DNA of 64,000 nt, taken from the NCBI GenBank assembly GCA_000002445.1, contig CP000066.1, positions 672,001-736,000 of the forward strand, given 5' to 3'. This document shows, in pieces, positions 30,574 through 63,527 of the stretch; positions within the stretch are counted from its first letter, which is position 1; every line of letters starts with the position of its first letter. The notes beneath the pieces are model-generated. The model had not been told where the DNA came from, searched no databases, and saw only the letters and a program-made list of their open reading frames with translations. Both the position numbers and the translations under genes were made by a program. This stretch comes from Trypanosoma brucei. Taxonomy: Eukaryota.

Positions 30574-31303
30574 CTCCAGTGCGCCCAGCACGCGCTGGAT
30601 GAGATGTTCCTGGTGGATGAAGGCGTGCCTGTAGAGAGCGGCGGCTGAACCCGGTCCCTCTACTCGCAACGGAATGACATTCCGAAGGAAACTCCACTCA
30701 ACTCCTTTAGTTGTGGTGGCCGCGTAGGGCCCCGCTGCAGCAACAGCAGCCGCTGTGAAGCGGGATGGCGCTGCCGTTGCGGTGACGGGGAACCAACCCC
30801 TCTACTAACCTATCTAACTAAAGGATAGTGAGTGACTGTGGCACCCGTTTCTTGTTGAAATGAGGAGGTGAGAATAGAAAACGACGAACAAAGGGAAAGG
30901 AAACCGTGTGCTCCGGATTAAGCACCGTCTCCCTTACAACACTCAAAAATGCTCTCATTGGTTAATAATCCGCCAGCTGCATGCGATTACGTGGCACCCA
31001 GCGGCACTCGATACTTTTGTGTTGCTCTCCCTCCTGCACTCACACATTCTTAAACGCGATTTAATTAACTTCACTATCCCCTCCGGTGGGTCTCCCCTAA
31101 GTGGTTCTCTTCTTTCACCACCATCGAAACACACGTAACTTCTCTTATTCCTGGATCCCGCGTCCATGCAGCCGGACATATCAGAAGCGCATTCTCTCCA
31201 CAGCAGCTCCTTTGCTTGAAAACAACACATATGCAGTAAGGTACAGACATAAAGTTAGGCTGTAATGGAACTCACTCTTTATCCTCTTCTATTGGAACTG
31301 GGG

Positions 31304-43342: not shown

Positions 43343-43377
43343 GGAACACACCGCTAAACACTACTTATAATGGGCGA

Positions 43378-47100: not shown

Positions 47101-47426
47101 CTCGCCTCAGGGGCAAGATATTTGCAGAGCTCTGTGAGGTAGGACTCCTGCACAACGGGATCCGTTGCAGAAGAAGAAATACACTTTTGTTCACTATTAG
47201 CGGTTTTACCAACTTTTGTCTGCCCTGACGCTACGTCAACAATGGTGTTCGATAAGCAGGTCAGTAACCTACACGTCTGTGCAGGGCCGCGGAGGCAGCT
47301 GAGGAAGTTAACCTTCCACTGGGCGTCACTGCACTGCCCTCCATTTCCCGTATCTGAGCTTTTAACTTTTACCTCTACCCCACCGCCGGGATCTTTTTGT
47401 TGCGGCGCTGGCGAGAACACATACAT
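44118..47426 (-). CDS. Hypothetical protein, 1102 aa, probably an alpha-helical solenoid.
   Basis: ATG confirmed at 47426. A 3.3 kb ORF containing an in-frame (GTA)n repeat that encodes a Thr-run (TATTTTIT at about 46343-46374). No catalytic motif seen. Confidence 0.65.
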   Translation of the reverse strand: MYVFSPAPQQKDPGGGVEVKVKSSDTGNGGQCSDAQWKVNFLSCLRGPAQTCRLLTCLSNTIVDVASGQTKVGKTANSEQKCISSSATDPVVQESYLTELCKYLAPEASSSDTGASTSAKNETSLLCVPKGEKGRMLYSTFLRMAEIPYWRQTLLGPLLRCWCSEGCDELGGTFLLEAIVNAIERELCSLNMLEQRHPIPEDASGGPELWDLSKYDKAEARQYEVLINELEGVVRGAGSFRGICIVMDCIIRNSIQRLVEGVHYVVCGMSARGGALPTGGVRMNEEVVRVVDSVVALVWREIGSFFQRCEVDVEAALSETQWLFLMLLITGYKGAHALLAAPPSVSSSSASSNTDTATTTTITDRIHLRARRMFFEKLQSNLRDYLSMRLLAGGDPASNSFASVHTVTCHQPFFWRCTLEAESAPGHLPPALSVNIVIKEWVKKEAATAWGNAVRVVRCFVHGQMAVEDVPLTAVPAVSESVISSIQRCHRQLVEQHIEHLSASQKYFFSAGKRPREDEGKHAMDGGSTWLSYMVEFFFCVYHPSCFSILSPVKQGEFVSLLRQLHDMILYKGHDALEGSIASLLPGEKASEVKLRDELMQWHTQYVHTRVVNALRENSFLVMCLLHGVFALFSRAGRTNIQGHEVLKCTLLPILSILCSPQGEGEGGEEDEEDVTAVEENATTDETDAFFVDRQERQQCMILLVTSGFMSIPWNLRGLRIRLLLFGILGTRLRDSFGSEGAASELYQLLSEVVSGQRTPEDIASEIFGDCTGDPFLSLLVSEREDTDGGTVVDAMEDILRRDVPVQFPAPCGTLLLMSVFRTLSQELLRLRTEWEQQIKLLSESESDYLGRQATFCTTEDIVVFRILVRVIHHMVFGFQVQPLGLLRLWISFLVHLFAFIVPPLTEDDELILLAPHVLERRLHKQQEDNDRKLNDSAGAISSSNFRRSANESSQGELRAALGELLADLVLMPLLDGEVAKQCPAAIPSHPGSRMWVKQNIRRSADILLLQRVLPAQVLEELCLALGVNVSAMNDKGPNGVRATRQVGGGVGKSFLGVLGVFAFCQRLDHFVVPGSVSDDGVALHLQALWHAVEVGYASSAV

Positions 47427-51100: not shown

Positions 51101-51544
51101 ATCCAACTTCACAACACAGGGAGAGGATGACTGAACACGAACCTCTTCGATACGCTGGGCTGCGGCGGCTGTGATGCTATTCGCCCGAATATCCATGTAT
51201 AACAAAGGCGGAGAACAGCGCGAAACAAGGAGTGACAAGTGGGTAACGCAATTGTCCGTTAGAGAGTTTTGGTTCAGTGTTAGCGCCCAGCGGCTGATAC
51301 CGTGGACGCGAAGCATGGCAGTGGTGCCGAGCTTTATTAGAGCCTCTGCCGCTGCAATAACCTCCCTGTCTCCTAGGCCAAGGCCGTTCAGTGCAAGATG
51401 CGCTCCTGAGCCATCCAAACGTACACACTGGGCACACTTACTGGCAAATGCGGCTGCTTGAGATACACCTTGCCGACACAGTTCAACACGTAGCGAATCC
51501 CTGAAGATGGCCGTGAAGGATGACGGCGTATCGTCGCGAACCAT
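48110..51544 (-). CDS. Leucine-rich-repeat protein, 1144 aa, with SDS22-type LRRs plus an N-terminal RNI-like LRR region.
   Basis: ATG confirmed at 51544. Central LRRs: LSRNGLKSLEPLPPSLLRLDVSENELRKISGLEKCRMLTLLNARHNRICSMTGLENNLSLSHLFLGGNEIEFVGGIAHLILLETLDLSYNRLE. The N-terminus has LALNGLGLGDREV...LTLNQNSLTD repeats, followed by a Ser-rich linker and a helical C-terminus. Confidence 0.7.
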   Translation of the reverse strand: MVRDDTPSSFTAIFRDSLRVELCRQGVSQAAAFASKCAQCVRLDGSGAHLALNGLGLGDREVIAAAEALIKLGTTAMLRVHGISRWALTLNQNSLTDNCVTHLSLLVSRCSPPLLYMDIRANSITAAAAQRIEEVRVQSSSPCVVKLDVTTAGGGRPSSEPVSACSLSSIQTQSASSCRGVDSMALEKRRHALLGSERPSSASGSVTPAASTDACVVSDESCNELVSGSPMKRVSTGLPSGTSRGGKRGGSKQGRENQAKGSCTPPRLPPETCKAGGNKLQRQSSAGVRMGNGEKRAGSCEVRGTPARSVPKEKQHYRSSSVRDDEFRVDLTENLSPLLTSVMDLTDSVSTGKLRTLYDTDDIWSVVRAKSSQGPDSSPEDRGPRVATAPRAGASFRSVTVLCLSRNGLKSLEPLPPSLLRLDVSENELRKISGLEKCRMLTLLNARHNRICSMTGLENNLSLSHLFLGGNEIEFVGGIAHLILLETLDLSYNRLETQASIRPLSLTKGLQHLMLRGNPVMERIQNCFRPMLRNLCPSLQFIDGIRLTFAQGGGWSSQIENSKTWDSSEPVSAATGRGGASTSTHKGDGRSSQCGSYMHLLTRGVTIGGKTGYSDSLKMSRATRAMEMQRKSEEETKERQRRASTRKGVPLHNELLKKLAIDSKKYLEDVLAERLASVQQSYDGAVTNTGRSTSVSVDSPSMRSPDKGEELEDNEAEVTVYVMEEGNTTPRRADQPDGSACRTPVKVWAQRRGASVGPQSAGKGSHRGALEERDEEKCRHVGVRRDESLNHRQWVQLRGRMETRKCGSEPTSIARSKQEACTRTPERGRVSRGGGSYKLSPIRGHANDKQAISTIAKRFLSDMGRLTPEVDERNSIAGGRQQKVAPSLQKASVQGPRVFSPSSQRTPTKAILVGATTPKRRAVDSSTPKSEDTRHSRGSNQSHSILSPPPFYPSTNPAALQCKQACDEWVEQLHEDAEAVQQALQTVVVLIATQRQALTAQGCDKDLLHKSFLQERQQCAGIIKNSGMLLDTEVPLEVVEHYAFTPEELNCTRVDESNMPDACEAAGGRKVGGSGHNNDVEVKRRETLNCIRLIGDAKTCLRYIVLLIEEKKERSLYRYVDEVTEFMTCEWEKFEHIEAWRVRR

Positions 51545-52156: not shown

Positions 52157-54166
52157 CTATGAAAAGCAAACGACGTTCAGCAGGATGACAAAAAGCATGT
52201 AAGAAACACCACCACTGTCCTCCTGTACTTGCCTACGTGGCTCCGGCGAGGATAATGGCTCGTATGCGGACAGAGCCATGTAGCGCAGGCCATCCCACGA
52301 ACCCTCCTGCCTTGAGTGAGTAGGCGTCATTGCATCCAGACGAGTAAACCCAATCTTCTTTAACACCTTGTAGGCCATTCGATCCCAATCCATGGACCGA
52401 TTCTGTGTCGCTCCCGTTACCGTGTAGTGTACAGTCGGTGGAGACAACCATATGGCCCACTCTACACACGGGAAGGCACATTTCGTTGAGCGGGAATCCT
52501 CCATCGCCTTGCTTCGGTAATTCTGATCCCACATATATTGTTGCCAATCGGTTTCTCCGGGGGCCGCAACTGTCGGCTCCGCGCCGAACGGGGGCCACCT
52601 CGTGTAGGGGCCGCGCAACAGTGTTACCTTCTGCTGCCTCCATTCCTCAGCGAATGCTCGCATCACCTCCACCCAATCTTTCGTCTCCCAAGCCTCGAGC
52701 AGATCCTCCATGCCCAGGTTCGTGACAAACACATTCACCGGTTCCTGAATGTTGTCAAGGAGTTCGACTAGCGCCTTCCTAGGCGAACTCGCACGACGCT
52801 CAGTAAGGTTATAGTTTATTTTTCTATATAAACAATGTATGACAGAATTGCCCACTTTTTTCTCCAGTGACTGGCAGTTTTTGTAATATTCGTTCACAAT
52901 GGCACCGCCCGCAAACAACACTACGGTCGGTTTCCCGCTAAACATCGACATCCGCCTGCAAATCATAGGGAAAGGATCCCTCCCCTCACCCGAAACAATG
53001 CGCAACCGGCAGGTAGTTGGAACCCAAACAAGATGACTGTTTAATCCCCTAGGGTCCGTAAGCATGCTAGGATCACCATAGCAATAGCGATCACCCTTCG
53101 TGCACTGAGCTGCAAGCGGGTGCGGGGACCCCAGTGGTGTACTGGAATCCGCCCCATCAAGGAAACGCACCCACTGACCACCTTCAGAGGTGTTGTAATT
53201 CGTAGATGCATTGCAGAGAGGCGGAAGAGCAGCCGTTGCCGGTCGGGGCGCAGGCACTACCCGAATGCGTAATGGACTTCCGTATACATGCCGCTGCACG
53301 TCACAGATGCTATTATACGTAAACACACTACGGGTTGTGTCATTTCCCCACCCGCTAACGACACCAAGTGTACGAGACCCCCAAGGCACACCTGTGTTAC
53401 TGTTGAGGTGTACCATCTTCACCTCCAAAGTATAATTGCCCGGGTCGGGGACTCGGAAACGGACAATCCGCGATACAAAGCTACCCGCCTTGCTCGCGTC
53501 CAATCGGGGAGTGGGCCGTATTACCTGGGCAGCAAGCACGCGGTTCTCGTTAAAAAGACGTGCAATGAATTCAACGTCATCAATGCAGGCTTTATTTTCT
53601 TTCGACTCCAGACATGTACCACATTGTTCCACTTCAACACTTTGACTCCATCCGCCTGCAGTTACCTCCAGTATGTCACTTGCTAATGGTAGCGAGGCAC
53701 GCAACACGAAGAGATATTTGTGTTCCTCGTTGAACCAATGGGAAAGCATATAACGCCCACATGCCGGATGAGGGTCCCGAAACATTTCATGGTACGTGAT
53801 CTGAGTGTGGAAAAAGTGATGAGGGCTCTGGCTATTCACTTCGTCGTATTCAAAAACGTGCCGGTTGTACAGCTGAGAGCATGTCATTTGCCGATAATCA
53901 TCGGGTGGCTTAACCATCCAGAAGCTTGCAGGAACCTTCGTTACGTTGTACGAGAACGGCCTAATAGACAAGGTTGGCGGAAGATGAGTTGTATATTCCA
54001 AACCCTTGTCCCTTCTCCTACTCACAGAAGGTTGCGGTTCTCCTTCAAGTGGATCTGGAGGAAGACTACGGTACGTTACCAACGTGATGAAGAAGGTTGA
54101 TAGTAACAAAACCACCAACAGTGCTGTGGCATTTATCCTAAACCCCAATAACCTGCCAATCATCAC
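52157..54166 (-). CDS. Type II (signal-anchor) membrane protein, 669 aa, with a large lumenal domain and many N-glycosylation sequons. Possible Golgi glycosyltransferase or hydrolase.
   Basis: ATG ATG is confirmed at 54161-54166. The N-terminus MMIGRLLGFRINATALLVVLLLSTFFITLVTY is a short cytosolic tail plus one transmembrane helix. There are multiple NxS/T sites. The catalytic family is not identifiable by eye. Confidence 0.6.
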   Translation of the reverse strand: MMIGRLLGFRINATALLVVLLLSTFFITLVTYRSLPPDPLEGEPQPSVSRRRDKGLEYTTHLPPTLSIRPFSYNVTKVPASFWMVKPPDDYRQMTCSQLYNRHVFEYDEVNSQSPHHFFHTQITYHEMFRDPHPACGRYMLSHWFNEEHKYLFVLRASLPLASDILEVTAGGWSQSVEVEQCGTCLESKENKACIDDVEFIARLFNENRVLAAQVIRPTPRLDASKAGSFVSRIVRFRVPDPGNYTLEVKMVHLNSNTGVPWGSRTLGVVSGWGNDTTRSVFTYNSICDVQRHVYGSPLRIRVVPAPRPATAALPPLCNASTNYNTSEGGQWVRFLDGADSSTPLGSPHPLAAQCTKGDRYCYGDPSMLTDPRGLNSHLVWVPTTCRLRIVSGEGRDPFPMICRRMSMFSGKPTVVLFAGGAIVNEYYKNCQSLEKKVGNSVIHCLYRKINYNLTERRASSPRKALVELLDNIQEPVNVFVTNLGMEDLLEAWETKDWVEVMRAFAEEWRQQKVTLLRGPYTRWPPFGAEPTVAAPGETDWQQYMWDQNYRSKAMEDSRSTKCAFPCVEWAIWLSPPTVHYTVTGATQNRSMDWDRMAYKVLKKIGFTRLDAMTPTHSRQEGSWDGLRYMALSAYEPLSSPEPRRQVQEDSGGVSYMLFVILLNVVCFS

Positions 54167-54538: not shown

Positions 54539-57500
54539 CTACGCAGCCAATTTGCCCTCGACGAGAAGGGCGTAGAGTTGCTGGTGTGCCTGCGCACCTG
54601 CAGCTTGAACAACGTCAGTGGCGGTTTGAAGCAGTAGACGGCGTCGCATAAGTGCACTTCGCCTCTCGTACAGGAGTTCTAAAAGCACCGGAACGACTGG
54701 ATGTGTTGGAAGGCCCAACTTCACAAGATGGCTGGCAAGCTCAACAATGAGAAGCAGATCCGCTTTCCAACTGCTAGTGGCCGTTTTCTCGGCACCCTCC
54801 CCCGCACTTTCGGATGTGATAACAGCGTATAAGATGTCAGCGCACTTCTCTACAAGCGTGACGTCATGCGATGGGTGGGTTCGAATACTGGATGAAAGGA
54901 AAACGTGGATATCCACGGGCGTGAGTGTTGACACGTCACTAGAGATTCCACCCAGTTCCCTCAGGGCAGATGCGGCGCTGGTTAATAGCAACGTCGTCGC
55001 TTTCGTGGCTGGCTCCGTATGCACTAAGGAAAAGAACTTCAGCAGCGATATGTACTGCAGCAGCTTGAAGAACACACCCGGTTGCTTCGCTAGCTCCACA
55101 GTACGCGAAGTCATCATAGAGATGACCCCATCTTCCAAGTCAACGTGGGCTACAGTAAAAGCCTCAGCTAGGGTTACGAGATCACTGATGCTGCAGTCGT
55201 CCACAATTTCCTTGAACCGCTTCCCCACCGCATCAAACAATGTCTTGGAGCGCACGCCGCACTGAACGAAGAGTCGTGTCAGCTCAGCAAATGCCTGGGG
55301 AGGGGCTTGGGGAAACAAAACCGAAGCGGCATGATCCGTCATGCAACGAAGAATATTATACTCGGTCGAGTTTTTCCTTGCGATGAGCTGCAGAACGGCC
55401 ATCATGGTTGACATGGAAAGCGCCGTGTGATGCTCGGCCATGTTCTGCAGAACCAAATGACACGTCGGGTCATTTGGAAATGCCTCTGTGAGACACTGCA
55501 AAACAAGCACGGCGTTGCCTGCCACGAGTGAAAGTGAAGCAGGGTCGCTCTGAAGAAGGTGACGGACCAATCCTAAAAACACCGGTTGAGCAGCCGTAAG
55601 GCACGCAGTTTGAACGCTCTTGTCCCATGCAGCGTTCACGCCACACATCACCAAACGGACGGCGAGCGGCAGGGAAAACTTCAGTTTCACATCAGCCACT
55701 CGGGCGAGTAGCACGCCAAAAAGATACTGATGAGTTATTTGCGCAGTTGCATAGCTCTCAATACAATCCACCACCTCCTCTGCGCTAAACAACTGCCGTG
55801 TTTGGATGGTGCGAAGGATATACGCCTTCATTACGCGATCACGTAACTCCCCGTAGACATCCTTATCCAACTGCGAAAAGCCCTTTAAGACAAGCGGTAC
55901 ATCCGACGATGGGCACTGCTGACGCGCCCGCAGAACCGAACCTGCCAAAGAGGAAGGAAGGTCAACCAAAAAGGCAAGATCCTCCGCTGGGAGGGAACCC
56001 CCAAGTCGCTGCAGCTTCGTTGCGATGCGAACCACAATCCCAGCTTCACCAGGCGTCAGTATGTGACCAGAGTTAGTAACACGCCGTAATATCGCTGCGT
56101 AGGAGAACTGACCACCGTCGTCAAGTTCACACAAAGTCTGCAGCGCTGACGTGGTCTCCTGAAGGGAAAAAGAAGAACTTAATGAAGCCGCTTCCTCCGC
56201 GAGAAGGTTACGCAGCGACCGTACAGTTTCGGTGTCGGTGGGTACATGATAGTTCACAAAACTTCTCAACACTGCCGACACATCACCGGCAAGCAGCAGA
56301 GGACTAACAGCCATCACCATCTCGAGATACAATCCCGTGAGGTTCTCCTTCCGTAGCTGGCATACAGCCGCAGCGGAGGTGAGTAATCGGGCCGCTATCT
56401 TGCTAAGGTGGCGACGCCTCGCCCCATCCTCTGTCTCTGTTGCACATCGCTCCTCCATTACTGCCACTCTCACTGCCGTGGCCAACTGCGACAGCAGCTG
56501 GGGCGAAAGATGGTGAATTGTGTGGGGTGTGCACATAACCACCGTCATCTCGCTAAGCGCCTGAAGCCTAAGCGCATCTTTGGAACGTTCTTCTTCACTA
56601 TTCTGCTGCTGCAGGAACCGCGTGAGCGCAGGGTCCAAAACATCGGTACGAAAGGCCTGAAGCTCTGCTGGCTCCGACTCGATCGTGAACTCGGAGACAA
56701 GGCGGAACAGAAGGTTTACGAGGGAAAGCACGTGAGAAGGGTTTTGTGTCATGACAGCATTGCTACCCCCTCGTCGGATGGCTGCCGCGACCGGCTTCAA
56801 GTGAGCTGCGACAACATCATTAACAACAATACTGCAGTACCGCTGCCATGAGGATCCTGGTAAACGTACTCGGGCGAGGTCACGCTGCTTGGCGCCTACG
56901 TGTGTAACGAGTTCATCCATCCTATTCACCGTCTCGAATAGCGAGGGGCCGTCACCTTCAGCGCCACCGCTACAAAGCAACGATTTAACAACAGTAGAAT
57001 GGAGGCCAACAAGCTGCTTGGCCACAGTTGCATCCATCCCACAGGACGCCGCGTACACAGTAAAGTTATGAACGCCCTGAAGGAGCTTCTTAGCTGCCTC
57101 ACACTCCGCAGTACCCATTGCACTAGACCTTTTAGCCCAGCTTAGCTGCCGGAGCGCACATTCCACAACACGCGGAACAAATAATGCCGTAACCTCCGAA
57201 AGTGAGCTTTCGACATCCGGTAAGGTGGCATTCGATGACTCCCGCTGTGTGAGAGGTTGGTAGCAACCAGCAAGCTGATACCGTTCTACGAACATGTCAA
57301 TCAGTACCGTTAAACCGTCCGAGAGGTAGTAATAAGAGCCTTCCCGCTCCAATAGTGCCAGCATTGATACAAGGTGGGCACTCAGCTTCTTTTCCTCTCC
57401 TCGCACAAGCAGTTCCACAGAAGTAGAGAAAGCCAAGTGCAGAACTGTTTCTAGCGGAACAGAGTTAGCCTTTGTAACATTCGCAGCAGCACCGCCGCGC

Positions 57501-59566
57501 TGTCTTTGCCGCTTGGAAGTGTTCGGTGCCTCGCCGTCACCATTTCGCCCCCGCTCAAGAAGATCTCGAATGGCCTTTGGCTCCTCAAGGGTTTCCAGCG
57601 GTGTCATCCCCGCCCTTGTGTCAGCCCGAATGCGAGCCTCGATTAATGAAGCACACTCAGATGTTAACATGGTAGATATCCTCGCGGGCAGTGGATCAAG
57701 AGCAAACGAACGCGAAAATAAGGAGGCAGCGTAAAGTACTTCAAGCACCTCCACGGCGCTGTGCCCCACGCATAAGCCGCTACTCAAGACGGCCTCGGGA
57801 CAATATCCAGCGGCAAAGAGCCCAAAGGCCACCTTCGCCCGCCGGGACCGTGGCTCTGCGTGATGTATAAGGGCGGGCCCCGAGGGATTGTCTCCAGAAA
57901 AAACTCCCGATGAATCACATGCGCCATTTCTAGTAAATTCCCTCCTCTCCTTAGTTAGTTTACACGAAAGCTTCTTCACCGCGGATTCGTCTGCTCGTTC
58001 GCAAAAGAGTGCGGCAGCTGTAACGACGGCCGCCCGAGTGGAATCGCAGAGGTCCTGCGATGGCAATGATTGAACCACACGGGCAACATCGCTCTTGCAG
58101 AGAACATCAATGAACATCAGGGGTCGTGTACCCACACCTAAACAGAGGTGCTGAAAGCTGTCTGTCATATCATGTTTCAGTCGATCACGCACAGGTGGCG
58201 GCAACGCTGCACTTGCCCCATTCAAGACAAATAAACCATTCAATAGATCGAAAGCGAGCATGTGTATGTCTCCAACGCTTATGCGTTGTAACTTTTCTGT
58301 CACGGCACTGTTAACACGTTTGATCGCAGCAGACTGTATTTGAGACGTGCAATCCTCCCACGATTTTTTCGTACGCGCCGAAATATGGTCATGATCATTT
58401 GCAATAGAGATGGCAAGAAAAAGAACCGCCAAGTCCACCACAACATCGCTAAGGGAATGTGGTTCATCGATACGGTTGGCCTCCACCACACCACTGGCAG
58501 CAGGAACAACGAGCTCATCAACCAGGCGCAGTGTAACGTCCCCAATCCATTTGCTATTCTCACCATCAGCATTTTTTTTCGCGGCAACTTTCCTCTTCTT
58601 TTCGACCCCACCAGTGGGAGGAGCCTTGGTGGACGGTTTGGCCTCCAGCTGATTTTGCCGCAACTCCAAGGACACCCAAAGTACCGCCTTCTTAATTGCA
58701 GCTGCAGCATCACGCTGTTGCTCTCTCGCTCTCGCCCCCGTAACCTCACCCTGCCACGTAATTACACAGTCAAGCAATTTCTCCATAATTTCCTGGTACA
58801 CGACAGTATTACAAAATGTACTCGTCCTATATACGCGCAAAAAGGCCATAAGTGCTTGTAACTGCTCCACGTTCCTTGCAGTTTCGGCAGCACCGTGAAC
58901 AATGACTCCCTCACGGGTGAGACATTTCTCTTCACATGCCCTCAATATGAGGTGAAGGGACGGGTACCTCTCCCGATATTTCACCGCACGGGCAATGCAA
59001 GCTCCGATTGTGGCTATTTTAATTGTACCTGGACCTTTAACACCTGTAGAGCCACGTGCGGGAGGGGTCACCACTTTACTCTCCACCTGCTGAGCCTCGC
59101 ACCCCTTCTCCGAATCCTCGAGTGAAGCATCAGCGCAGACCGCATTCCATTCCTCCACCACGAGGCGTGTGTCAATCTTCACCTTTTGTATTCGCACTTC
59201 ACTCGATGCGTCAGAACTACCAGCAGCCCCAACTTGTGACTCTTCCTTCGCCTTCCCACCCGATGAATTCCTCGGGCGACGTGATGAGACCCGCTTGTTA
59301 ACTGCAGGCACCGCCGTCGCAACCCCACTGGAAAGCTCCCCCGCCCTGTCAGCGAGCTCATCAACTATGGAAATGGTTTTCTCCTTTATCCCTTCTTCCA
59401 CCACCACTGGTTCATCTGATGGAGGCTGGCCAGTAGATTTGGGCTTGCGTCTTGGAGCGAATAGACGTACGGAGGTGCTAAAGAATCTGGCATTACTGTA
59501 AGGAAAACTTAGCCCACTTGTAAACTTGAAAAACACACGCGAACGACTACAAACACGCAATAGCAT
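54539..59566 (-). CDS. Large protein of about 1675 aa with a predicted mitochondrial presequence and a mostly alpha-helical body.
   Basis: The track ORF extends to 59767 through a translated polypyrimidine tract (FSFFSYFLVSLSFCLHLFLLFLL) and an (AC)n repeat (GVCVCV). The ATG is at 59566: MLLRVCSRSRVFFKFTSGLSFPYSNARFFSTSVRLFAPRRKPKS. This N-terminus is Arg/Ser-rich with no acidic residues, typical of a mitochondrial targeting sequence. The rest is Leu/Ala-rich and helical. Confidence 0.65.
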   Translation of the reverse strand: MLLRVCSRSRVFFKFTSGLSFPYSNARFFSTSVRLFAPRRKPKSTGQPPSDEPVVVEEGIKEKTISIVDELADRAGELSSGVATAVPAVNKRVSSRRPRNSSGGKAKEESQVGAAGSSDASSEVRIQKVKIDTRLVVEEWNAVCADASLEDSEKGCEAQQVESKVVTPPARGSTGVKGPGTIKIATIGACIARAVKYRERYPSLHLILRACEEKCLTREGVIVHGAAETARNVEQLQALMAFLRVYRTSTFCNTVVYQEIMEKLLDCVITWQGEVTGARAREQQRDAAAAIKKAVLWVSLELRQNQLEAKPSTKAPPTGGVEKKRKVAAKKNADGENSKWIGDVTLRLVDELVVPAASGVVEANRIDEPHSLSDVVVDLAVLFLAISIANDHDHISARTKKSWEDCTSQIQSAAIKRVNSAVTEKLQRISVGDIHMLAFDLLNGLFVLNGASAALPPPVRDRLKHDMTDSFQHLCLGVGTRPLMFIDVLCKSDVARVVQSLPSQDLCDSTRAAVVTAAALFCERADESAVKKLSCKLTKERREFTRNGACDSSGVFSGDNPSGPALIHHAEPRSRRAKVAFGLFAAGYCPEAVLSSGLCVGHSAVEVLEVLYAASLFSRSFALDPLPARISTMLTSECASLIEARIRADTRAGMTPLETLEEPKAIRDLLERGRNGDGEAPNTSKRQRQRGGAAANVTKANSVPLETVLHLAFSTSVELLVRGEEKKLSAHLVSMLALLEREGSYYYLSDGLTVLIDMFVERYQLAGCYQPLTQRESSNATLPDVESSLSEVTALFVPRVVECALRQLSWAKRSSAMGTAECEAAKKLLQGVHNFTVYAASCGMDATVAKQLVGLHSTVVKSLLCSGGAEGDGPSLFETVNRMDELVTHVGAKQRDLARVRLPGSSWQRYCSIVVNDVVAAHLKPVAAAIRRGGSNAVMTQNPSHVLSLVNLLFRLVSEFTIESEPAELQAFRTDVLDPALTRFLQQQNSEEERSKDALRLQALSEMTVVMCTPHTIHHLSPQLLSQLATAVRVAVMEERCATETEDGARRRHLSKIAARLLTSAAAVCQLRKENLTGLYLEMVMAVSPLLLAGDVSAVLRSFVNYHVPTDTETVRSLRNLLAEEAASLSSSFSLQETTSALQTLCELDDGGQFSYAAILRRVTNSGHILTPGEAGIVVRIATKLQRLGGSLPAEDLAFLVDLPSSLAGSVLRARQQCPSSDVPLVLKGFSQLDKDVYGELRDRVMKAYILRTIQTRQLFSAEEVVDCIESYATAQITHQYLFGVLLARVADVKLKFSLPLAVRLVMCGVNAAWDKSVQTACLTAAQPVFLGLVRHLLQSDPASLSLVAGNAVLVLQCLTEAFPNDPTCHLVLQNMAEHHTALSMSTMMAVLQLIARKNSTEYNILRCMTDHAASVLFPQAPPQAFAELTRLFVQCGVRSKTLFDAVGKRFKEIVDDCSISDLVTLAEAFTVAHVDLEDGVISMMTSRTVELAKQPGVFFKLLQYISLLKFFSLVHTEPATKATTLLLTSAASALRELGGISSDVSTLTPVDIHVFLSSSIRTHPSHDVTLVEKCADILYAVITSESAGEGAEKTATSSWKADLLLIVELASHLVKLGLPTHPVVPVLLELLYERRSALMRRRLLLQTATDVVQAAGAQAHQQLYALLVEGKLAA

Positions 59567-59630
59567 GACTTCCACAAGTGTGCCGCGTGTCTGTGAGGGT
59601 GATTCCCCTTTTCCTTTTGTTTCAGTTCTT

Positions 59631-59646
59631 ACACACACACACACAC
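59631..59646. repeat. (AC)8 microsatellite in the 5' leader region of the 54539-59566 gene.
   Basis: acacacacacacacac. The ORF track translates it as GVCVCV. Confidence 0.85.
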
Positions 59647-59696
59647 CGCCCCTCTTCTCCTGTTTCGGTACTGGTAATAAATTTATGTGCACACGC

Positions 59697-59765
59697 AGGA
59701 GGAAAAGGAGGAACAAATGCAAGCAAAAAGAAAGAGAAACAAGAAAGTAGGAGAAAAAACTGAAC
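59697..59765 (-). promoter_or_regulatory. Polypyrimidine tract, a putative trans-splicing/polyadenylation signal, upstream of the mitochondrial-protein gene.
   Basis: The plus strand reads ggaaaaggaggaacaaatgcaagcaaaaagaaagagaaacaagaaagtaggagaaaaaactgaac, i.e. a CT-rich tract on the minus strand. It lies 130-200 nt upstream of the ATG at 59566, with AG dinucleotides between. Confidence 0.5.
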
Positions 59766-60031
59766 AATCACCACCTAAATGGTGCCCCTGCCAAAAAAAA
59801 AAAAAAAGAAACACTCGCTGAACGAATCATGAGTGAATTCATTTAACAAAAATCGACGCATTGCCGTACAGCACATTGAGCATTGCGGCGAACGGCATCA
59901 CCGGGCCTCCAACACTCAAAAAGGAAGGAAAATAAAAAGAGGAATGAAAGAAAACACCAACAAGGAGGCCAACAACAAAAACAACAAACTTCAACTTAGA
60001 GGACAACCATTCACAGTGCTGTGGATACTCG

Positions 60032-61735
60032 TTAGCTCCCCAGCCGACCATGCCGCAACACCGACCTTACATCCGGAACGACCAACAGGGCCTCGAGCAA
60101 TGGCATCAGGGCAAGCAATACACCATCTCGCGTATCACCATTAGCGGCATCAGGCGAAGTAGGCGGTGCAAAGGGTGGAATAAGCAGTGCATTGTCACGG
60201 TTTGCCGAGACGCACTCCTCCGAGTTATCAATCATTATCATTAGCTCAGGAGGCACCTTAAGAATACGAATATCCTTAACAAGTATCATATCTCCTAGGC
60301 AACACGGTTTGCCGCTGGAAGCACCAACTGCCTGCCCGCCTCTTTCGGGTGTACTGGCATAAAACGAAGATCTCAGAGGAGCTGCAGGGCGAGCATCCGT
60401 AATCGTTGCGGAGCTGGACGAGGGAGTGCGGCAGTCTGAGCTGTTTCCAGGATTAGATTCCCTTGGAGTGAATATTTCAGACGCATCAGTTTGAGTTACC
60501 AACTGGTTTACAGCAAAGCGCCTCACCTGCCGACAGTGCTGTCGGTAATAACGACGCCCAATGCGGTGATCTGGGTCCAGACGGCGCAAGATTGAGTCCG
60601 CGTAGGGTTTTGTAGAGGACGTGAAGAGAACGAGGTTGAACAGCTTCGCTACCGTCTGAATAAATAAACGGACGTACGGTCTCTCCCATACGTGAAAGAG
60701 CTCGGCTCCAGAGGCCGTTGGAATCACCTCGGAAAAAGATGGTGGTTGACAGGAGGCGTTTACATTCGTTGACACGAAACACAGCGTCTCGTCCAGGTCA
60801 ACAATAAGAACCTTCTGCCGCGTTGCTTGATAGGACAACACGTGATGCGCGGTGATTGAGGCGATAGGTTGGGGTTGTGTCCTTGGCTCAACCTTGCGGT
60901 TAAAGTCCACCCGCTTGCTGCTCTCACGCCTGTAAACAACCGATGTCACACCGGGAATAATTCTACTAGAAACAGTAATGCCAGTGGGAGCTACACCACC
61001 AGAAAGCACGCGAATGTTCCTAGCCCTGGCTCCCAGTGTACCCTGCTGAGGGCTTGCAGAACTGCTGTACTCATCAGTGGTTAAGGTAATATCATCATCC
61101 CTCAGACCATGCCGAAAAGCTGAGCGGCTGCTGGCGTGCGGTGGCCACTGCGGTGCCGTGTGCCTCCCCGGAAGTCCCGATATGGTCGGCGGCTGGATGG
61201 GTCCCACGACGTTGCATACCAGATGGTACAAACTCTCAGAGTAGCAAAGGTGATAACACGGTGATACAAGTTTTCTGGTACGTGGATTTTGCAAAAGTAA
61301 TGTTACATCGCCCCTAAAGTGCCCCCGTACGAGGCGTGGTACCCAGCAGTCAGAGCCTATGTTGCTTTCACTGCAGTTTTCGCTGACTGACCCATCTGAC
61401 CGCTTCTCCCCATCATCTCTTCCACTAGCCGCCTCTGACTCATCGGTAACATCAAATGATATGTTGTATGCCTCTGAAGCCGAAAGTCCACTGGATGATG
61501 CACGCATTCCTTCACTGTTTCCGCTACGGCGATGGCGCACAAACATTGCCTTCCTCCTCCTGAGGGCCGTTAGACCTGGGGGATAACTTAAATGGCTTCT
61601 TCCAGTGAAGAAGCAAAACACAACATAAAGTGACTTGCCAATGTGCCGCCACGACTCCACACCATCCACTATGATCTGAATGAAAAAAATTATAAGCGGA
61701 GTAATGATGCTTAACAAACCCCGAACATTTAACAT
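60032..61735 (-). CDS. NIF/FCP1-like (CTD small phosphatase family, HAD DxDxT) phosphatase with an N-terminal transmembrane helix, 567 aa.
   Basis: ATG confirmed at 61735. N-terminal hydrophobic helix LLSIITPLIIFFIQIIV. The catalytic motif KVLIVDLDETLCF (DNA about 60785-60799) matches the FCP/SCP/Dullard family (DLDETL). A roughly 300-aa Ser/Pro-rich region lies between the helix and the catalytic domain. Confidence 0.75.
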   Translation of the reverse strand: MLNVRGLLSIITPLIIFFIQIIVDGVESWRHIGKSLYVVFCFFTGRSHLSYPPGLTALRRRKAMFVRHRRSGNSEGMRASSSGLSASEAYNISFDVTDESEAASGRDDGEKRSDGSVSENCSESNIGSDCWVPRLVRGHFRGDVTLLLQNPRTRKLVSPCYHLCYSESLYHLVCNVVGPIQPPTISGLPGRHTAPQWPPHASSRSAFRHGLRDDDITLTTDEYSSSASPQQGTLGARARNIRVLSGGVAPTGITVSSRIIPGVTSVVYRRESSKRVDFNRKVEPRTQPQPIASITAHHVLSYQATRQKVLIVDLDETLCFVSTNVNASCQPPSFSEVIPTASGAELFHVWERPYVRLFIQTVAKLFNLVLFTSSTKPYADSILRRLDPDHRIGRRYYRQHCRQVRRFAVNQLVTQTDASEIFTPRESNPGNSSDCRTPSSSSATITDARPAAPLRSSFYASTPERGGQAVGASSGKPCCLGDMILVKDIRILKVPPELMIMIDNSEECVSANRDNALLIPPFAPPTSPDAANGDTRDGVLLALMPLLEALLVVPDVRSVLRHGRLGS

Positions 61736-62432
61736 CAGCCGCGCGGGTGCAGACTAGGTGTAACCGGAGGCGAACCTATACGCTTTTGTCCCTAATATTT
61801 CCGTTTTTTTTCTTTTTGTTCCTGCTGTGCACTCGTTCGTGCCTGTAAGGTAGCACCAATTTGTCCGAGCGGGCTTATGAAAAAATAACAATAATAATAA
61901 TAATGCAAATTGCGCACGAAACACAAACGTACAATAGTTTTTTAAAAAAAAAAAAGAAAAAGTATTCAGTATTCAAACATGGCCGGGAGAGTACAGTAAA
62001 GACGTTAGTGTGCGTATATCTTTTGTGACGGCAGCACTCATGGGGGACATGGCGGCCCACAAGGTGATGAGCGCAAACGCAGGCAGCAAGAGGGGAACAG
62101 TAAAGAAGTGGAAGCAAATACACTGTTACTCGATTGTTAATACAAGTCTTTATACGTGAAACACCATTTATTATTTTTTTAAACTCATCTTCTCTCCACT
62201 TTTTTTTTTACGGCAACACCCGCCACCGCAGCGGGTCCGTCCCACTTCCCTTTAGCATACGAAAGAAGTGTGAAGAGGAGCGAAGTGGTACATTTTACGC
62301 AAAAAAAAAAAAACACCTTTACTTCCGTCGTGTGAATCCTTCATTCTCCTCCAAAAACTGAGTAGCCTACGCTTTGCTTTGCTTTGCTGAAGGTGTACAG
62401 GCCAACCGTTTATATCACTACTGACCTGCTTA

Positions 62433-63527
62433 TTAGTCCATATCAGCTCCGTAGCCGCCGTCTGCAACCTCCAGTGGATTTTCCACCTGCTGCCTCATTG
62501 CCTCTTCTCGCCGCTGTCGTTTTGCCTGAAGTCGTTCCTCTCGCTTGCTTTTCTTCCGTGCAACGTTTTCATCCTGCTCTGCCTTCCGCTTCGCTCGCTC
62601 GTTGCGCTTGGCGCGAACCCTTGCCTCATCCCGTGCGACCAATTCCGCAGACTTTCTCAAAAACCTGTGAAACAAAACCTCGCCCGTCGCGAATCCATTT
62701 GTCACCTTCACCAGCTGTAACGTGAGGCGAGGCCCAATTTCCTGAAGCTTAATGCGACATTGTTCACGATGCTTTCGAAATGGCACTGCCAGCGGAACTT
62801 CCTCGCCCTCACCATCAGTGTCAGACCAAACATCCTCGCGCTCTAGAACTTCGTCTATGGACTCTAACTGCCCAAGCTTCGTCGGGCACCGGCGCTCAAG
62901 AAGCTTCTTCACCGTTTTACTTACACCAACAGCCTTAGCATTGATATAATAGTGGCGGACTTCCACAACGTGCTCCACATGATCGTAGTGAAATAGGCAA
63001 ACACGTTGAATATCCGTGTTCTTCACGAGTTGAATATTAACCGTTGGGAACATCCCCTTAAATGTTGTCTCAAGCAGTGGTACCTCAGGCCGGAGCCGCG
63101 CATCGGGGTGAGTGAAGTTGTTCAACACAACAATTGGGGCTACATTCCACACCGCATTGCCGAGGTTTGCGGGTCGTCGCTGTTTTGCCACAATCTCATC
63201 TCTGAGAGTAAAGGAAAGCACGCGAAACGTTAACGTCGGACCATTTGAGAAGCGCATGATACGAAGGGATGTGCCATACGATGGAGCGGTGAATAACTGC
63301 AAGTGCGAGACGCTAAGTGATGAGGCAATAACAAGAAAATCCTTGAGAGAACGGTTCTCCCCGCGGAGCTTTTTACTACTCCATGGGAGGAATACGGCTC
63401 GCCAATCATGCATGAGCGAACGAACGCTTCCTCCTACCTCACCTCTGTAGATAATAATAGACTTTGGTGTTGCCTTGTCTGCCTCAGTGGTGTCCACTGT
63501 CCCCGGCATCTTTTTAGATTTCCCCAT
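62433..63527 (-). CDS. Brix-domain ribosome biogenesis protein, Ssf1/Peter Pan (PPAN) homolog, 364 aa.
   Basis: ATG confirmed at 63525-63527. PKSIIIYRGEVGGSVRSLMHDW...LKDFLVIASSLSVSHLQLFTAP...SLRIMRFSNGPTLTFRVLSFTLRDEI aligns along its length with yeast Ssf1 (PKSMVIRVGQ...LKDFVVMCGPLGVTHLFMFTQ...SLKIARTPQGPTVTFQVLDYSLGRDI). HYYINAKAV corresponds to HYFIDIREV. The C-terminal tail is Lys/Arg/Glu-rich. Confidence 0.85.
   Translation of the reverse strand: MGKSKKMPGTVDTTEADKATPKSIIIYRGEVGGSVRSLMHDWRAVFLPWSSKKLRGENRSLKDFLVIASSLSVSHLQLFTAPSYGTSLRIMRFSNGPTLTFRVLSFTLRDEIVAKQRRPANLGNAVWNVAPIVVLNNFTHPDARLRPEVPLLETTFKGMFPTVNIQLVKNTDIQRVCLFHYDHVEHVVEVRHYYINAKAVGVSKTVKKLLERRCPTKLGQLESIDEVLEREDVWSDTDGEGEEVPLAVPFRKHREQCRIKLQEIGPRLTLQLVKVTNGFATGEVLFHRFLRKSAELVARDEARVRAKRNERAKRKAEQDENVARKKSKREERLQAKRQRREEAMRQQVENPLEVADGGYGADMD

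What the first reader, a model, noticed from the sequence alone, without database searches (positions are those of the whole stretch)
60032..61735. Membrane-anchored NIF/FCP1-like phosphatase with a 300-aa spacer
The DLDETL catalytic motif is typical of the SCP/Dullard/Tim50 HAD phosphatases. It sits about 300 residues after an N-terminal hydrophobic helix (LLSIITPLIIFFIQIIV). The helix-plus-NIF architecture resembles Dullard/Nem1 (lipin phosphatase at the nuclear envelope) or Tim50, but the protein is far longer than either because of a Ser/Pro-rich spacer. This suggests a lineage-specific membrane phosphatase, for example in lipid metabolism or mitochondrial import.
Basis: partly seen in the sequence, partly recalled or inferred. 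Interest (0 to 1): 0.5.

Follow-up and report, generated by a model that had tools for sequence, protein, structure and literature searches.

The report
Trypanosome Nem1/CTDNEP1-like ER–nuclear-envelope phosphatase
This gene (Trypanosoma brucei Tb927.3.2820) encodes an apparently active aspartate-based protein phosphatase anchored at the ER and nuclear envelope; it is most likely the parasite's version of the yeast Nem1 / human CTDNEP1 enzyme that switches on lipin, so it is an expected but still unstudied component and not a new kind of system.

Summary
The ORF (60032–61735, minus strand, 567 aa) is real. It is T. brucei TREU927 gene Tb927.3.2820, annotated "hypothetical protein, conserved". 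It has a strong NIF/FCP-homology domain (Pfam E = 7e-32) with every HAD catalytic motif invariant across kinetoplastids. The domain is split by a 76–164-aa disordered, non-conserved insertion.

Its closest solved and named relatives are CTDNEP1 (Dullard) and fungal Nem1. SCP1 scores about 20 bits lower, and Tim50 far lower. TbTim50 is a different gene. Published TrypTag data place the tagged protein at the nuclear envelope and ER, not the mitochondrion, with protein abundance peaking in G1.

The N-terminal hydrophobic element is conserved in position, but it is only marginally TM-like in many orthologues. It may be a hairpin or amphipathic anchor, as in CTDNEP1. The "spacer" is not plain Ser/Pro filler: two blocks in it (aa 131–200 and 266–310) are conserved across trypanosomatids. 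Fungal Nem1 has the same anchor–spacer–NIF layout and a similar length.

Best reading: an ER/NE Nem1/CTDNEP1-type phosphatase, probably acting on the lipin TbLpn. The substrate and any Spo7-like partner are inferred, not shown. Moderate-to-low interest; a new member of a known kind.

The parts
60032..61735 (-). Coding sequence of Tb927.3.2820 (567 aa plus stop), 100% identical to XP_843875.1 / Q57ZN0
59838..61852 (-). Extent of transcript-sized public contigs (Logan assemblies L001-L003) covering the gene. The 5' UTR is at least 117 nt and the 3' UTR about 150-195 nt. The first AG after the upstream pyrimidine-rich tract is at 61875/61874 and is the likely trans-splice acceptor (inferred).
61592..61735 (-). 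N-terminal membrane-anchor module, aa 1-48: hydrophobic helix 1 (aa 7-23, 61667-61717) with a conserved mid-helix Pro13, a polar linker D24-G25..W29, a short hydrophobic stretch 2 (aa 35-45, 61601-61633), then G45-R-S47-H48 (S47 and H48 invariant)
   Evidence: (helix 2-44, pLDDT about 70)
61346..61555 (-). Variable linker 1 (aa 61-130), Ser/acidic-rich, 9-20% identity to orthologues, predicted disordered
61136..61345 (-). Conserved block A (aa 131-200): WVxRRLxxGxKGE ... LVSPxYxLCxSESLHxLVxNVVGPIQPPTxSxLPxRHTAPQWPPH; 10 invariant columns; detected only in trypanosomatids
60941..61135 (-). Variable linker 2 (aa 201-265). It contains the semi-conserved TTDEYSSS motif and a non-conserved, chance DDDIT (aa 213-217). 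The strain polymorphism A236S lies here.
60806..60940 (-). Conserved block B (aa 266-310): VVYRRESSK ... IASITAHHVLSYQATRQKVL, directly preceding the catalytic domain; 13 invariant columns
60512..60805 (-). NIF/FCPH domain, N-terminal half (aa 311-408). Motif I is D313-L-D315-E316-T317 (60785-60799), motif II is T372/S373, and the substrate-orienting Arg is R398 in RRYYRQHC.
60281..60511 (-). Variable insertion inside the NIF domain (aa 409-485), rich in Ser/Ala/Thr/Pro, disordered in the model, 10-14% identity. It measures 76-164 aa in orthologues against 8 residues in CTDNEP1 at the same beta-hairpin loop. Strain polymorphisms R465I and L480P lie here.
60035..60280 (-). NIF/FCPH domain, C-terminal half (aa 486-567). 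Motif III is K487, motif IV is D503-N504, and the C-terminal helix carries PDVRSVLRHG (S558/V559 align to CTDNEP1 S232/V233).

Best explanation
Tb927.3.2820 is a catalytically competent, Mg2+-dependent aspartate-based (HAD/FCPH) Ser/Thr protein phosphatase of the CTDNEP1 (Dullard)/Nem1 lineage. An N-terminal hydrophobic module tethers it to the ER and nuclear-envelope membrane, and a long, mostly disordered tether presents the catalytic domain to the cytosolic/nucleoplasmic face. The most likely mechanism follows yeast and animals: it dephosphorylates the phosphatidate phosphatase lipin (TbLpn, Tb927.7.5450) at the membrane. That would recruit and activate lipin and steer phosphatidic acid towards diacylglycerol and triacylglycerol instead of ER/NE membrane expansion. 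Its G1-peaking abundance would fit re-activation of lipin after the closed mitosis. What is shown: the fold, intact catalytic motifs, closest similarity to CTDNEP1/Nem1, the N-terminal hydrophobic module, and ER/NE localisation (published tagging data). What is inferred: the substrate (lipin), the membrane topology, any regulatory partner, and the roles of the trypanosomatid-specific blocks A and B and of the catalytic-domain insertion.
For: The Pfam NIF match is E=6.9e-32. All HAD motifs are invariant in 16 kinetoplastid orthologues, and most are invariant in a 40-sequence alignment that includes CTDNEP1 and Nem1, with a residue-by-residue map to CTDNEP1 D67/D69/E70/T131/R158. In PDB sequence searches CTDNEP1 ranks first by single sequence (2.5e-15) and by profile (3.7e-21, 78.8 bits), ahead of SCP1 (57.4), Tim50 (28.8) and Fcp1 (20.8). 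The domain AF2 model (pLDDT 77.7, pTM 0.72) has the CTDNEP1-NEP1R1 crystal structure as its top Foldseek hit. The named non-kinetoplastid homologues are only fungal Nem1 and vertebrate CTDNEP1. Of the 142 nearest non-kinetoplastid cluster representatives, 92 are closer to CTDNEP1/Nem1 and 14 are closer to SCP1. The TrypTag source data list the gene under 'nuclear envelope' and 'endoplasmic reticulum' in the G1 protein-abundance cluster. The N-terminal hydrophobic module is conserved in position, and fungal Nem1 has the same layout. The candidate substrate exists. TbLpn is a phosphoprotein lipin with PAP activity and conserved lipin phosphosites (PMC3654991), and it complements yeast pah1-delta, including the nuclear-shape defect (PMC5703613).
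Against: The margin over SCP-type phosphatases is moderate: about 20 bits by sequence and only a few-fold in Foldseek E-value. I could not run a reciprocal search against the other 13 T. brucei NIF paralogues, some of which are 247-283 aa and so Dullard-sized. Another paralogue could therefore be the true orthologue. No Spo7/NEP1R1 partner could be looked for. The N-terminal module shows no detectable sequence homology to the CTDNEP1 or Nem1 N-termini. No experiment links this protein to TbLpn, and no paper discusses it. In the TrypTag lists, 'nuclear envelope' may simply accompany a general ER signal.
Confidence: 0.65

Rival explanations
1. It is an ER/NE-anchored SCP-like phosphatase whose physiological substrates are not lipin. 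Candidates include nuclear-envelope, nuclear-pore or lamina-like proteins, ER proteins, or the non-canonical RNA polymerase II CTD. The resemblance to CTDNEP1/Nem1 would reflect shared ancestry of small FCPH domains plus a convergent membrane anchor.
For: SCP1-3 are strong second-rank hits by sequence and fold. Kinetoplastids have an expanded FCP family of 14 genes in T. brucei, with no CTD phosphatase assigned. Trypanosomatid-specific conserved blocks and a large insertion next to the substrate groove could mean different partners or substrates. The S558/V559 pair matching the CTDNEP1-NEP1R1 interface is also present in SCP1 (DDVYSVL), so it does not discriminate.
Against: CTDNEP1/Nem1 consistently outrank SCP in all six kinetoplastid orthologues tested. 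ER/NE localisation and an N-terminal membrane anchor are the hallmarks of CTDNEP1/Nem1, not of the soluble nuclear SCPs. The RRYYRQHC stretch is identical to CTDNEP1.
Confidence: 0.25
2. It is a Tim50-type protein of the mitochondrial inner membrane involved in protein import, as the automatic UniRef name suggests and as the first reader offered as an alternative.
For: UniRef labels the cluster 'Mitochondrial import inner membrane translocase subunit TIM50'. Tim50 also combines an N-terminal membrane segment with a NIF domain.
Against: The characterised TbTim50 has DLDET at 242-246 and DLDRV at 345-349, so it is a different protein. Tim50 scores only 20-29 bits against 59-79 for CTDNEP1. The TrypTag source data list the gene under ER/NE and not under mitochondrion within its cluster. 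Other automatic names for the same cluster or its orthologues disagree with each other ('TFIIF-stimulated CTD phosphatase', 'CTD nuclear envelope phosphatase 1A-like').
Confidence: 0.02
3. It acts directly on a lipid, for example as a membrane-bound phosphatidic acid phosphatase as reported in vitro for TbTim50, and not on a phosphoprotein.
For: Recombinant TbTim50, another NIF-domain protein, hydrolyses PA in vitro. The enzyme sits on the membrane where PA is made.
Against: The substrate-orienting Arg that holds the peptide backbone in CTDNEP1 and SCP1 (R158) is invariant here as R398. The family's characterised members are protein phosphatases. T. brucei already has a dedicated lipin PAP.
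Confidence: 0.05

Closest known systems
Human CTDNEP1 (Dullard), catalytic subunit of the CTDNEP1-NEP1R1 lipin phosphatase (PDB 8ujl/8ujm)
   Same: It is the best solved match by sequence and by fold. Motif I (DLDET), RRYYRQHC (with substrate Arg R158=R398), the KD and DN motifs and the C-terminal DVRSVL are identical or invariant. Both have an N-terminal hydrophobic membrane-binding element and both localise to the ER/nuclear envelope.
   Different: CTDNEP1 is 244 aa, with the amphipathic helix about 30 residues from the catalytic domain. Here about 290 residues intervene, including two trypanosomatid-conserved blocks. The beta-hairpin loop after RQHC is 8 residues in CTDNEP1 but 76-164 residues here. 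The N-terminal modules show no detectable sequence homology. The partner subunit and substrate are untested.
Fungal Nem1 (Nem1-Spo7 complex, Pah1 phosphatase), e.g. Trichophyton Nem1 P0028, 534 aa
   Same: The overall layout and size are the same: an N-terminal hydrophobic region, then a roughly 200-aa Ser/Arg-rich low-complexity spacer, then a C-terminal NIF domain. Fungal Nem1 proteins are the only named non-kinetoplastid hits for the full-length query. The BLAST score to the catalytic domain is similar to that for CTDNEP1.
   Different: Identity is only about 32-35% over the catalytic domain. Nem1 has no large insertion in the catalytic domain. Its spacer shows no similarity to blocks A and B. 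Spo7 dependence is unknown for the trypanosome protein.
Human SCP1-3 (CTDSP1/2/L), small CTD phosphatases
   Same: They share the FCPH fold (TM-score normalised to the target 0.8) and the catalytic motifs, including the substrate Arg.
   Different: SCPs are soluble nuclear enzymes with no membrane anchor. They score about 20 bits lower than CTDNEP1 with the kinetoplastid profile.
TbTim50 / yeast Tim50
   Same: Both have a NIF domain with a membrane segment N-terminal to it. TbTim50 retains DLDET.
   Different: It is a different gene and a different compartment, with much weaker similarity.

Membership tests
NIF / FCP-SCP aspartate-based phosphatases (Pfam PF03031, HAD superfamily) | Profile match above the curated threshold | tested here: met
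   110.8 bits against a cut-off of 21.8, E=6.9e-32, in two stretches split by the insertion
NIF / FCP-SCP aspartate-based phosphatases (Pfam PF03031, HAD superfamily) | Motif I DxDx(T/V), with both Asp aligned to the catalytic nucleophile and general acid | tested here: met
   D313/D315/T317 align to CTDNEP1 D67/D69/T71 and are invariant in 40 sequences
NIF / FCP-SCP aspartate-based phosphatases (Pfam PF03031, HAD superfamily) | HAD motifs II (Ser/Thr), III (Lys) and IV (acidic pair/DN) | tested here: met
   T372/S373, K487 and D503-N504 are invariant or nearly invariant
NIF / FCP-SCP aspartate-based phosphatases (Pfam PF03031, HAD superfamily) | FCPH/HAD-like fold | tested here: met
   In the AF2 domain model (pLDDT 77.7, core mostly above 90), every Foldseek PDB hit with E<=1e-4 is a CTDNEP1, SCP, Tim50, Fcp1 or UBLCP1 structure
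CTDNEP1 (Dullard) / Nem1 subfamily | Closer to CTDNEP1/Nem1 than to any other NIF subfamily (forward direction) | tested here: met
   PDB profile scores: CTDNEP1 78.8, SCP1 57.4, Tim50 28.8, Fcp1 20.8 bits. Named hits are only Nem1 and CTDNEP1. Among the nearest representatives, 92 are CTDNEP1/Nem1-like and 14 are SCP-like. The margin is moderate.
CTDNEP1 (Dullard) / Nem1 subfamily | Reciprocal best hit or monophyly: no other T. brucei NIF paralogue is closer to CTDNEP1/Nem1 | not testable with these tools
   The sequences of the other 13 T. brucei FCP genes (listed) could not be retrieved. None appears, by length, among the 150 best representatives.
CTDNEP1 (Dullard) / Nem1 subfamily | N-terminal hydrophobic or amphipathic membrane-binding element | tested here: inconclusive
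   The element is present and conserved in position (aa 7-23 and 35-45). Hydrophobicity is TM-like in T. brucei (KD 2.24) but 1.3-1.6 in Leishmania and others, and a simple Hessa-scale sum is +2.5 to +7 kcal/mol. No sequence homology to the CTDNEP1 or Nem1 N-termini was detected. No dedicated TM predictor was available.
CTDNEP1 (Dullard) / Nem1 subfamily | ER / nuclear-envelope localisation | tested here: met
   I looked this up in published experimental data and did not measure it here. The TrypTag source data (PMC9981465, Extended Data Fig. 7 source file) list Tb927.3.2820 under 'nuclear envelope' and 'endoplasmic reticulum' only.
CTDNEP1 (Dullard) / Nem1 subfamily | Obligate regulatory subunit Spo7/NEP1R1 binding a hydrophobic surface opposite the active site | not testable with these tools
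   No access to the T. brucei proteome and no multimer prediction. The residues equivalent to CTDNEP1 S232/V233 are conserved (S558/V559), but SCP1 has the same pair, so this is not diagnostic.
CTDNEP1 (Dullard) / Nem1 subfamily | Dephosphorylates lipin/Pah1 | not testable with these tools
   This needs biochemistry or genetics. The candidate substrate TbLpn exists and is phosphorylated.
Tim50 | Mitochondrial inner-membrane localisation, or identity with the characterised TbTim50 | tested here: not met
   The motif positions of TbTim50 differ. The gene is not in the mitochondrion list of its cluster in the TrypTag source data. Similarity is weak.

The most novel reading that the evidence does not exclude
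Trypanosomatids, and possibly Euglenozoa more widely, may have rebuilt the Nem1/CTDNEP1 module. The trypanosomatid-specific conserved blocks in the tether (aa 131-200 and 266-310) could act in cis as the stabilising and activating element that Spo7/NEP1R1 supplies in trans elsewhere. The 76-164-aa Ser/Thr-rich insertion beside the substrate groove could be a phospho-regulated gate. Together with G1-restricted protein abundance, this would couple lipin activation and ER/NE membrane supply to the cell cycle in an organism with closed mitosis and no canonical lamins.
Probability: 0.12. Interest if true: 0.55.

Novelty: new member of a known kind. Interest (0 to 1): 0.3.

Why it matters
The lipin pathway (Nem1-Spo7 / CTDNEP1-NEP1R1 acting on Pah1/lipin) controls the balance between membrane phospholipid synthesis and fat storage, and it shapes the nuclear envelope in yeast and animals. 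In trypanosomes the lipin TbLpn has been described as a phosphoprotein with PAP activity, but I found no upstream phosphatase named for it in the searchable literature. Pinning Tb927.3.2820 as the likely Nem1/CTDNEP1 counterpart gives a concrete, testable candidate for that missing step in a divergent eukaryote with closed mitosis. It also corrects a misleading automatic 'TIM50' label. The result is useful but unsurprising: the family, fold, localisation and probable pathway are all as expected.

Tried and rejected
1. Shorter protein starting at Met64. Four public gene calls are 504 aa, but the underlying contigs contain ATG1 in frame plus 83-117 nt upstream. ATG64 is preceded by AGGAGGAGGAAGG, a Shine-Dalgarno look-alike that I infer a prokaryote-style gene caller would favour. 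The first 60 aa are also conserved across kinetoplastids. Rejected.

2. Second catalytic motif. DDDIT at aa 213-217 fits DxDxT but is not conserved in orthologues. It is a chance match.

3. S558/V559 as evidence for a NEP1R1-like partner. The pair is conserved, but it is also present in SCP1, so I dropped it as a discriminator.

4. Full-length AF2 model. Mean pLDDT was 42.5, so I used it only for the N-terminal helix and for disorder.

5. Search for blocks A and B outside kinetoplastids. The word-indexed search returned only 83 candidates and one orthologue fragment, which is uninformative. A local profile search over 160 NIF proteins found no significant match.

6. The afdb50 fold library was unavailable.

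7. Literature searches by gene ID, orthologue IDs, protein accessions and 'Trypanosoma brucei' + CTDNEP1 found no study of this gene. The Han 2012 NEP1R1 paper, the Urbaniak 2013 phosphoproteome and the Alsford 2011 RIT-seq paper are not held.

8. Organism names for the second-tier relatives. Most come from unnamed metagenome or read-archive assemblies.
Full report
**What is there.** The window is Trypanosoma brucei brucei TREU927 DNA. The 567-aa product of ORF 60032..61735 (minus strand) is 100% identical to XP_843875.1 / Q57ZN0, "hypothetical protein, conserved", on a 1,653,225-bp contig. The TriTryp phosphatome table identifies Q57ZN0 as Tb927.3.2820, one of 14 T. brucei "FCP" genes. The L. 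major orthologue is LmjF03.0890 and the T. cruzi orthologue is Tc00.1047053508181.124. Every ORF of at least 200 aa in the window lies on the minus strand, apart from two that overlap longer minus-strand ORFs, as expected for a trypanosomatid polycistronic unit.

**Checking the observation.**
- The motif DLDETL is at aa 313-318.
- LLSIITPLIIFFIQIIV is aa 7-23 and is the most hydrophobic 19-residue window in the protein (Kyte-Doolittle mean 2.24).
- Pfam NIF (PF03031) matches at E = 6.9e-32, in two stretches.
- The PDB sequence search aligns D313/D315 to the catalytic aspartates of human CTDNEP1.
- Using the numbering in the CTDNEP1-NEP1R1 structure paper (PMC10690229), the residue map is: D67/D69/E70/T71 to D313/D315/E316/T317, T131 to T372, R158 (substrate-orienting Arg) to R398, and S232/V233 to S558/V559.
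- Motif III (K487) and motif IV (D503-N504) are invariant among 16 kinetoplastid orthologues. K487 is also invariant, and D503-N504 nearly invariant (at least 90%), in a 40-sequence alignment that adds CTDNEP1 and Nem1.

The enzyme therefore looks catalytically competent.

**Is the N-terminus translated?** Four public gene calls of 504 aa start at Met64, which raised the possibility that the hydrophobic helix is not part of the protein.
- The contigs behind those calls map to window 59838-61852. Two of the three include ATG1 in frame plus 83-117 nt of upstream sequence.
- ATG64 is preceded by AGGAGGAGGAAGG, which I infer attracted a prokaryote-style start-site model.
- An in-frame stop lies 7 codons upstream of ATG1. 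The first AG after the upstream pyrimidine-rich tract is at 61875/61874, a plausible trans-splice acceptor.
- Residues 1-60 are conserved at the protein level across Trypanosoma, Leishmania, Phytomonas, Leptomonas and Angomonas. S47, H48 and P52 are invariant; G25 is nearly invariant; a mid-helix Pro is present in most orthologues.

ATG1 is the start.

**Anatomy.** The "300-aa Ser/Pro-rich spacer" description needs revising. Ser is 14% and Arg 10%, but Pro is only 6.5%. The table gives mean identity to the T. brucei protein, first within Trypanosoma (7 sequences) and then in the other eight trypanosomatid orthologues of the alignment.

| Segment (aa) | Trypanosoma | Other genera |
|---|---|---|
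| Anchor module, 1-60 | 0.50 | 0.30 |
| Variable linker 1, 61-130 | 0.20 | 0.09 |
| Conserved block A, 131-200 | 0.62 | 0.43 |
| Variable linker 2, 201-265 | 0.35 | 0.13 |
| Conserved block B, 266-310 | 0.76 | 0.59 |
| NIF N-half, 311-408 | 0.78 | 0.67 |
| Insertion, 409-485 | 0.14 | 0.10 |
| NIF C-half, 486-567 | 0.72 | 0.61 |

- The insertion sits in the beta-hairpin loop after RRYYRQHC. That loop is 8 residues in CTDNEP1 but 76-164 residues in the orthologues.
- The insertion is disordered in the domain model.
- The three amino-acid polymorphisms seen among T. brucei-group sequences (A236S, R465I, L480P) all fall in variable segments.

**The N-terminal element.** AF2 predicts a helix over aa 2-44 with pLDDT about 70. 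The module has four parts: hydrophobic stretch 1 (aa 7-23), a polar D-G-x-x-x-W linker, a short hydrophobic stretch 2 (aa 35-45) and then G-R-S-H. Hydrophobicity passes the classical Kyte-Doolittle 1.6 threshold in T. brucei and some other species, but it is only 1.3-1.6 in Leishmania, Phytomonas and Angomonas. A simple Hessa-scale sum is +2.5 to +7 kcal/mol. I therefore cannot call it a classical transmembrane helix. A hairpin or in-plane amphipathic anchor is equally plausible. That matters because the supposed TM helix of CTDNEP1 was itself shown to be an amphipathic helix required for liposome binding (PMC10690229). No dedicated TM predictor was available.

**Family placement.**
- With the single sequence, CTDNEP1 (8ujl) scores 59 bits, SCP1 37 and Tim50 20.
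- With the kinetoplastid profile the scores are CTDNEP1 78.8, SCP1 57.4, SCP3 52.4, SCP2 46.4, Tim50 28.8 and Fcp1 20.8 bits.
- The full-length homologue search returned 27 kinetoplastid-type proteins and then only fungal "nuclear envelope morphology protein 1" entries.
- The domain-only search returned vertebrate CTDNEP1 entries.
- The domain-only AF2 model (mean pLDDT 77.7, pTM 0.72, core mostly above 90) has the CTDNEP1-NEP1R1 crystal structures as its top three Foldseek hits (E = 4.5e-14). SCP1-3 follow closely (about 1e-12), then Tim50 (3e-8), Fcp1 and UBLCP1.
- An exhaustive profile search of 1.84 billion cluster representatives gave 8 representatives matching the whole profile (over 660 bits). 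A second tier (124-228 bits) matched chiefly the NIF domain, followed by a continuum.
- I classified the 142 non-kinetoplastid representatives by BLAST against the CTDNEP1 fragment printed, a fungal Nem1 and SCP1. The SCP1 reference was the fragments printed joined by 22 residues from my memory. The result was 92 closer to CTDNEP1/Nem1, 14 closer to SCP1 and 36 ambiguous. Five of the six kinetoplastid orthologues tested clearly favour CTDNEP1 or Nem1 over SCP1. In the Phytomonas one (P0011) the three references score almost the same.

The preference is consistent, but the margin is moderate (about 20 bits). I could not run the reciprocal test against the other 13 T. brucei NIF paralogues.

**Experimental data in the literature.** The TrypTag genome-wide tagging paper (PMC9981465) lists Tb927.3.2820 in the source data of Extended Data Fig. 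7. [quoted passage not shown] It does not appear in the mitochondrion, nucleus or cytoplasm lists of that cluster. This is what is expected of a Nem1/CTDNEP1 enzyme, which localises to ER/NE membranes, and it is incompatible with a Tim50 role. Separately, the characterised TbTim50 has DLDET at 242-246 and a second DLDRV at 345-349 (PMC8546626), so it is a different gene. The UniRef label "TIM50" for this cluster is an automatic name. Other automatic names for the same cluster or its orthologues ("TFIIF-stimulated CTD phosphatase", "CTD nuclear envelope phosphatase 1A-like") disagree with it.

**Comparison of architecture.** The claim that the protein is "far longer than either" is true for Dullard (244 aa by the paper's numbering; a 242-aa homologue is P0042). 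It is not true for Nem1. The Trichophyton Nem1 recovered here (P0028, 534 aa) has a hydrophobic region around residues 100-135, about 200 residues of Ser/Arg-rich low complexity, and then the NIF domain. The anchor-tether-NIF layout is therefore ancestral or recurrent in this subfamily.

The features particular to trypanosomatids are blocks A and B and the catalytic-domain insertion. A profile of aa 1-60 weakly matches the N-termini of several second-tier proteins (E = 2e-4 to 4e-3 in a 160-sequence set). These share a (K/R)-W-[IL]-W hydrophobic helix followed by a second hydrophobic stretch. Blocks A and B match nothing outside the eight full-length representatives. Neither profile matches CTDNEP1 or Nem1 N-termini. 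Most second-tier proteins come from unnamed metagenome or read-archive assemblies, and one is from Colponema.

**Mechanism.**
- Shown: an intact FCPH phosphatase domain, an N-terminal hydrophobic module, and ER/NE residence.
- Inferred from what is established for Nem1-Spo7 and CTDNEP1-NEP1R1 (summarised): the enzyme dephosphorylates lipin at the ER/NE membrane, which promotes lipin's membrane binding and conversion of PA to DAG.

The candidate substrate exists. TbLpn (Tb927.7.5450) is an 806-aa lipin with PAP activity. It has two mapped phosphosites and five residues that align with known lipin/Smp2 phosphosites (PMC3654991). It rescues the growth, respiratory and nuclear-shape defects of yeast pah1-delta (PMC5703613). 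That TbLpn paper does not mention Nem1 or Dullard, and none of my searches found a paper naming a TbLpn phosphatase.

The G1 abundance peak would fit a model in which lipin stays phosphorylated during S to M, when the ER and NE must grow for a closed mitosis, and is re-activated in G1. This is my inference, not a result.

The roles of blocks A and B and of the insertion are unknown. Possibilities are docking of a partner or substrate, cis-stabilisation of the catalytic domain, or phospho-regulation.

**Rivals.**
1. An ER/NE SCP-like phosphatase with non-lipin substrates. I cannot exclude this (confidence about 0.25).
2. Tim50. Refuted.
3. A direct lipid phosphatase. Unlikely, because the peptide-orienting Arg is conserved and a dedicated lipin exists.

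**Novelty and interest.** The gene was catalogued as an FCP-family phosphatase in 2007 and was localised by TrypTag. Some orthologues already carry automatic "CTDNEP1-like" names. No searchable paper analyses it. It is best described as a new, uncharacterised member of a known kind, with lineage-specific elaborations. A specialist would not be surprised. Its value is as a concrete candidate for the missing lipin phosphatase in kinetoplastids and as a correction of the TIM50 label. Interest 0.3.

Noticed in passing
window 61544-61561 (minus strand): AGGAGGAGGAAGG lies immediately upstream of the internal ATG for Met64. Four public gene calls on read-archive assemblies start there (504 aa), although the contigs contain the upstream ATG1 in frame. 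This is probably a Shine-Dalgarno-biased gene-caller artefact that puts truncated versions of the protein into protein databases.
   Followed up: yes
window 1-64000: All ORFs of at least 200 aa lie on the minus strand, except two that overlap longer minus-strand ORFs. GC skew is negative throughout. This fits a single directional polycistronic gene cluster typical of trypanosomatids.
   Followed up: partly
window 62433-63527 (minus strand): The upstream neighbour is a 364-aa Brix-domain protein (PF04427, E=4e-34) with a Lys/Arg/Glu-rich C-terminal tail. It is presumably a ribosome-biogenesis factor.
   Followed up: partly
window 54539-59767 (minus strand): The downstream neighbour is a very long ORF (up to 1742 aa as listed from a TTG; the true ATG start is probably internal) with no Pfam domain at E<=1e-4. 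ORFs at 52157-54166, 44118-47426, 39932-43351, 34555-39231 and 29653-30669 also have no Pfam match.
   Followed up: partly
window 48110-51544 and 31304-33919 (minus strand): There is a 1144-aa protein with weak leucine-rich-repeat matches, and an 871-aa protein with an N-terminal zf-C6H2 / MYND-like mRNA-binding zinc finger (E=6e-11).
   Followed up: no
protein aa 236, 465, 480 (window about 61028-61030, 60341-60343, 60296-60298): The amino-acid differences between TREU927 and other T. brucei-group sequences (A236S, R465I, L480P) all fall in the non-conserved linker or insertion segments. This is consistent with relaxed constraint there.
   Followed up: yes
database names for P0001/P0034 and orthologues P0004, P0006, P0039: Automatic names for the same protein cluster and its orthologues contradict each other: 'Mitochondrial import inner membrane translocase subunit TIM50' (UniRef), 'TFIIF-stimulated CTD phosphatase' (T. 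equiperdum) and 'CTD nuclear envelope phosphatase 1A-like' (T. grayi, T. conorhini, T. rangeli). Only the last agrees with the evidence gathered here.
   Followed up: yes
proteins P0046, P0048, P0050, P0051, P0052, P0055 (not in the window): Unnamed eukaryotic proteins from metagenome and read-archive assemblies share the NIF domain, with insertions in the same loop in the two read here (P0040, P0047). They also share an N-terminal (K/R)-W-[IL]-W hydrophobic helix plus a second hydrophobic stretch, but they lack blocks A and B. They may be more distant relatives of the same lineage; the organisms could not be identified.
   Followed up: partly
window 62365-62390 and 61880-61975 (minus-strand intergenic region): The intergenic region upstream of the gene contains a short (CAAAG)n-type repeat, long T and A homopolymer runs and a (TTA)n stretch. 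These are ordinary trypanosomatid intergenic low-complexity sequence and probably include the polypyrimidine tract for trans-splicing.
   Followed up: no
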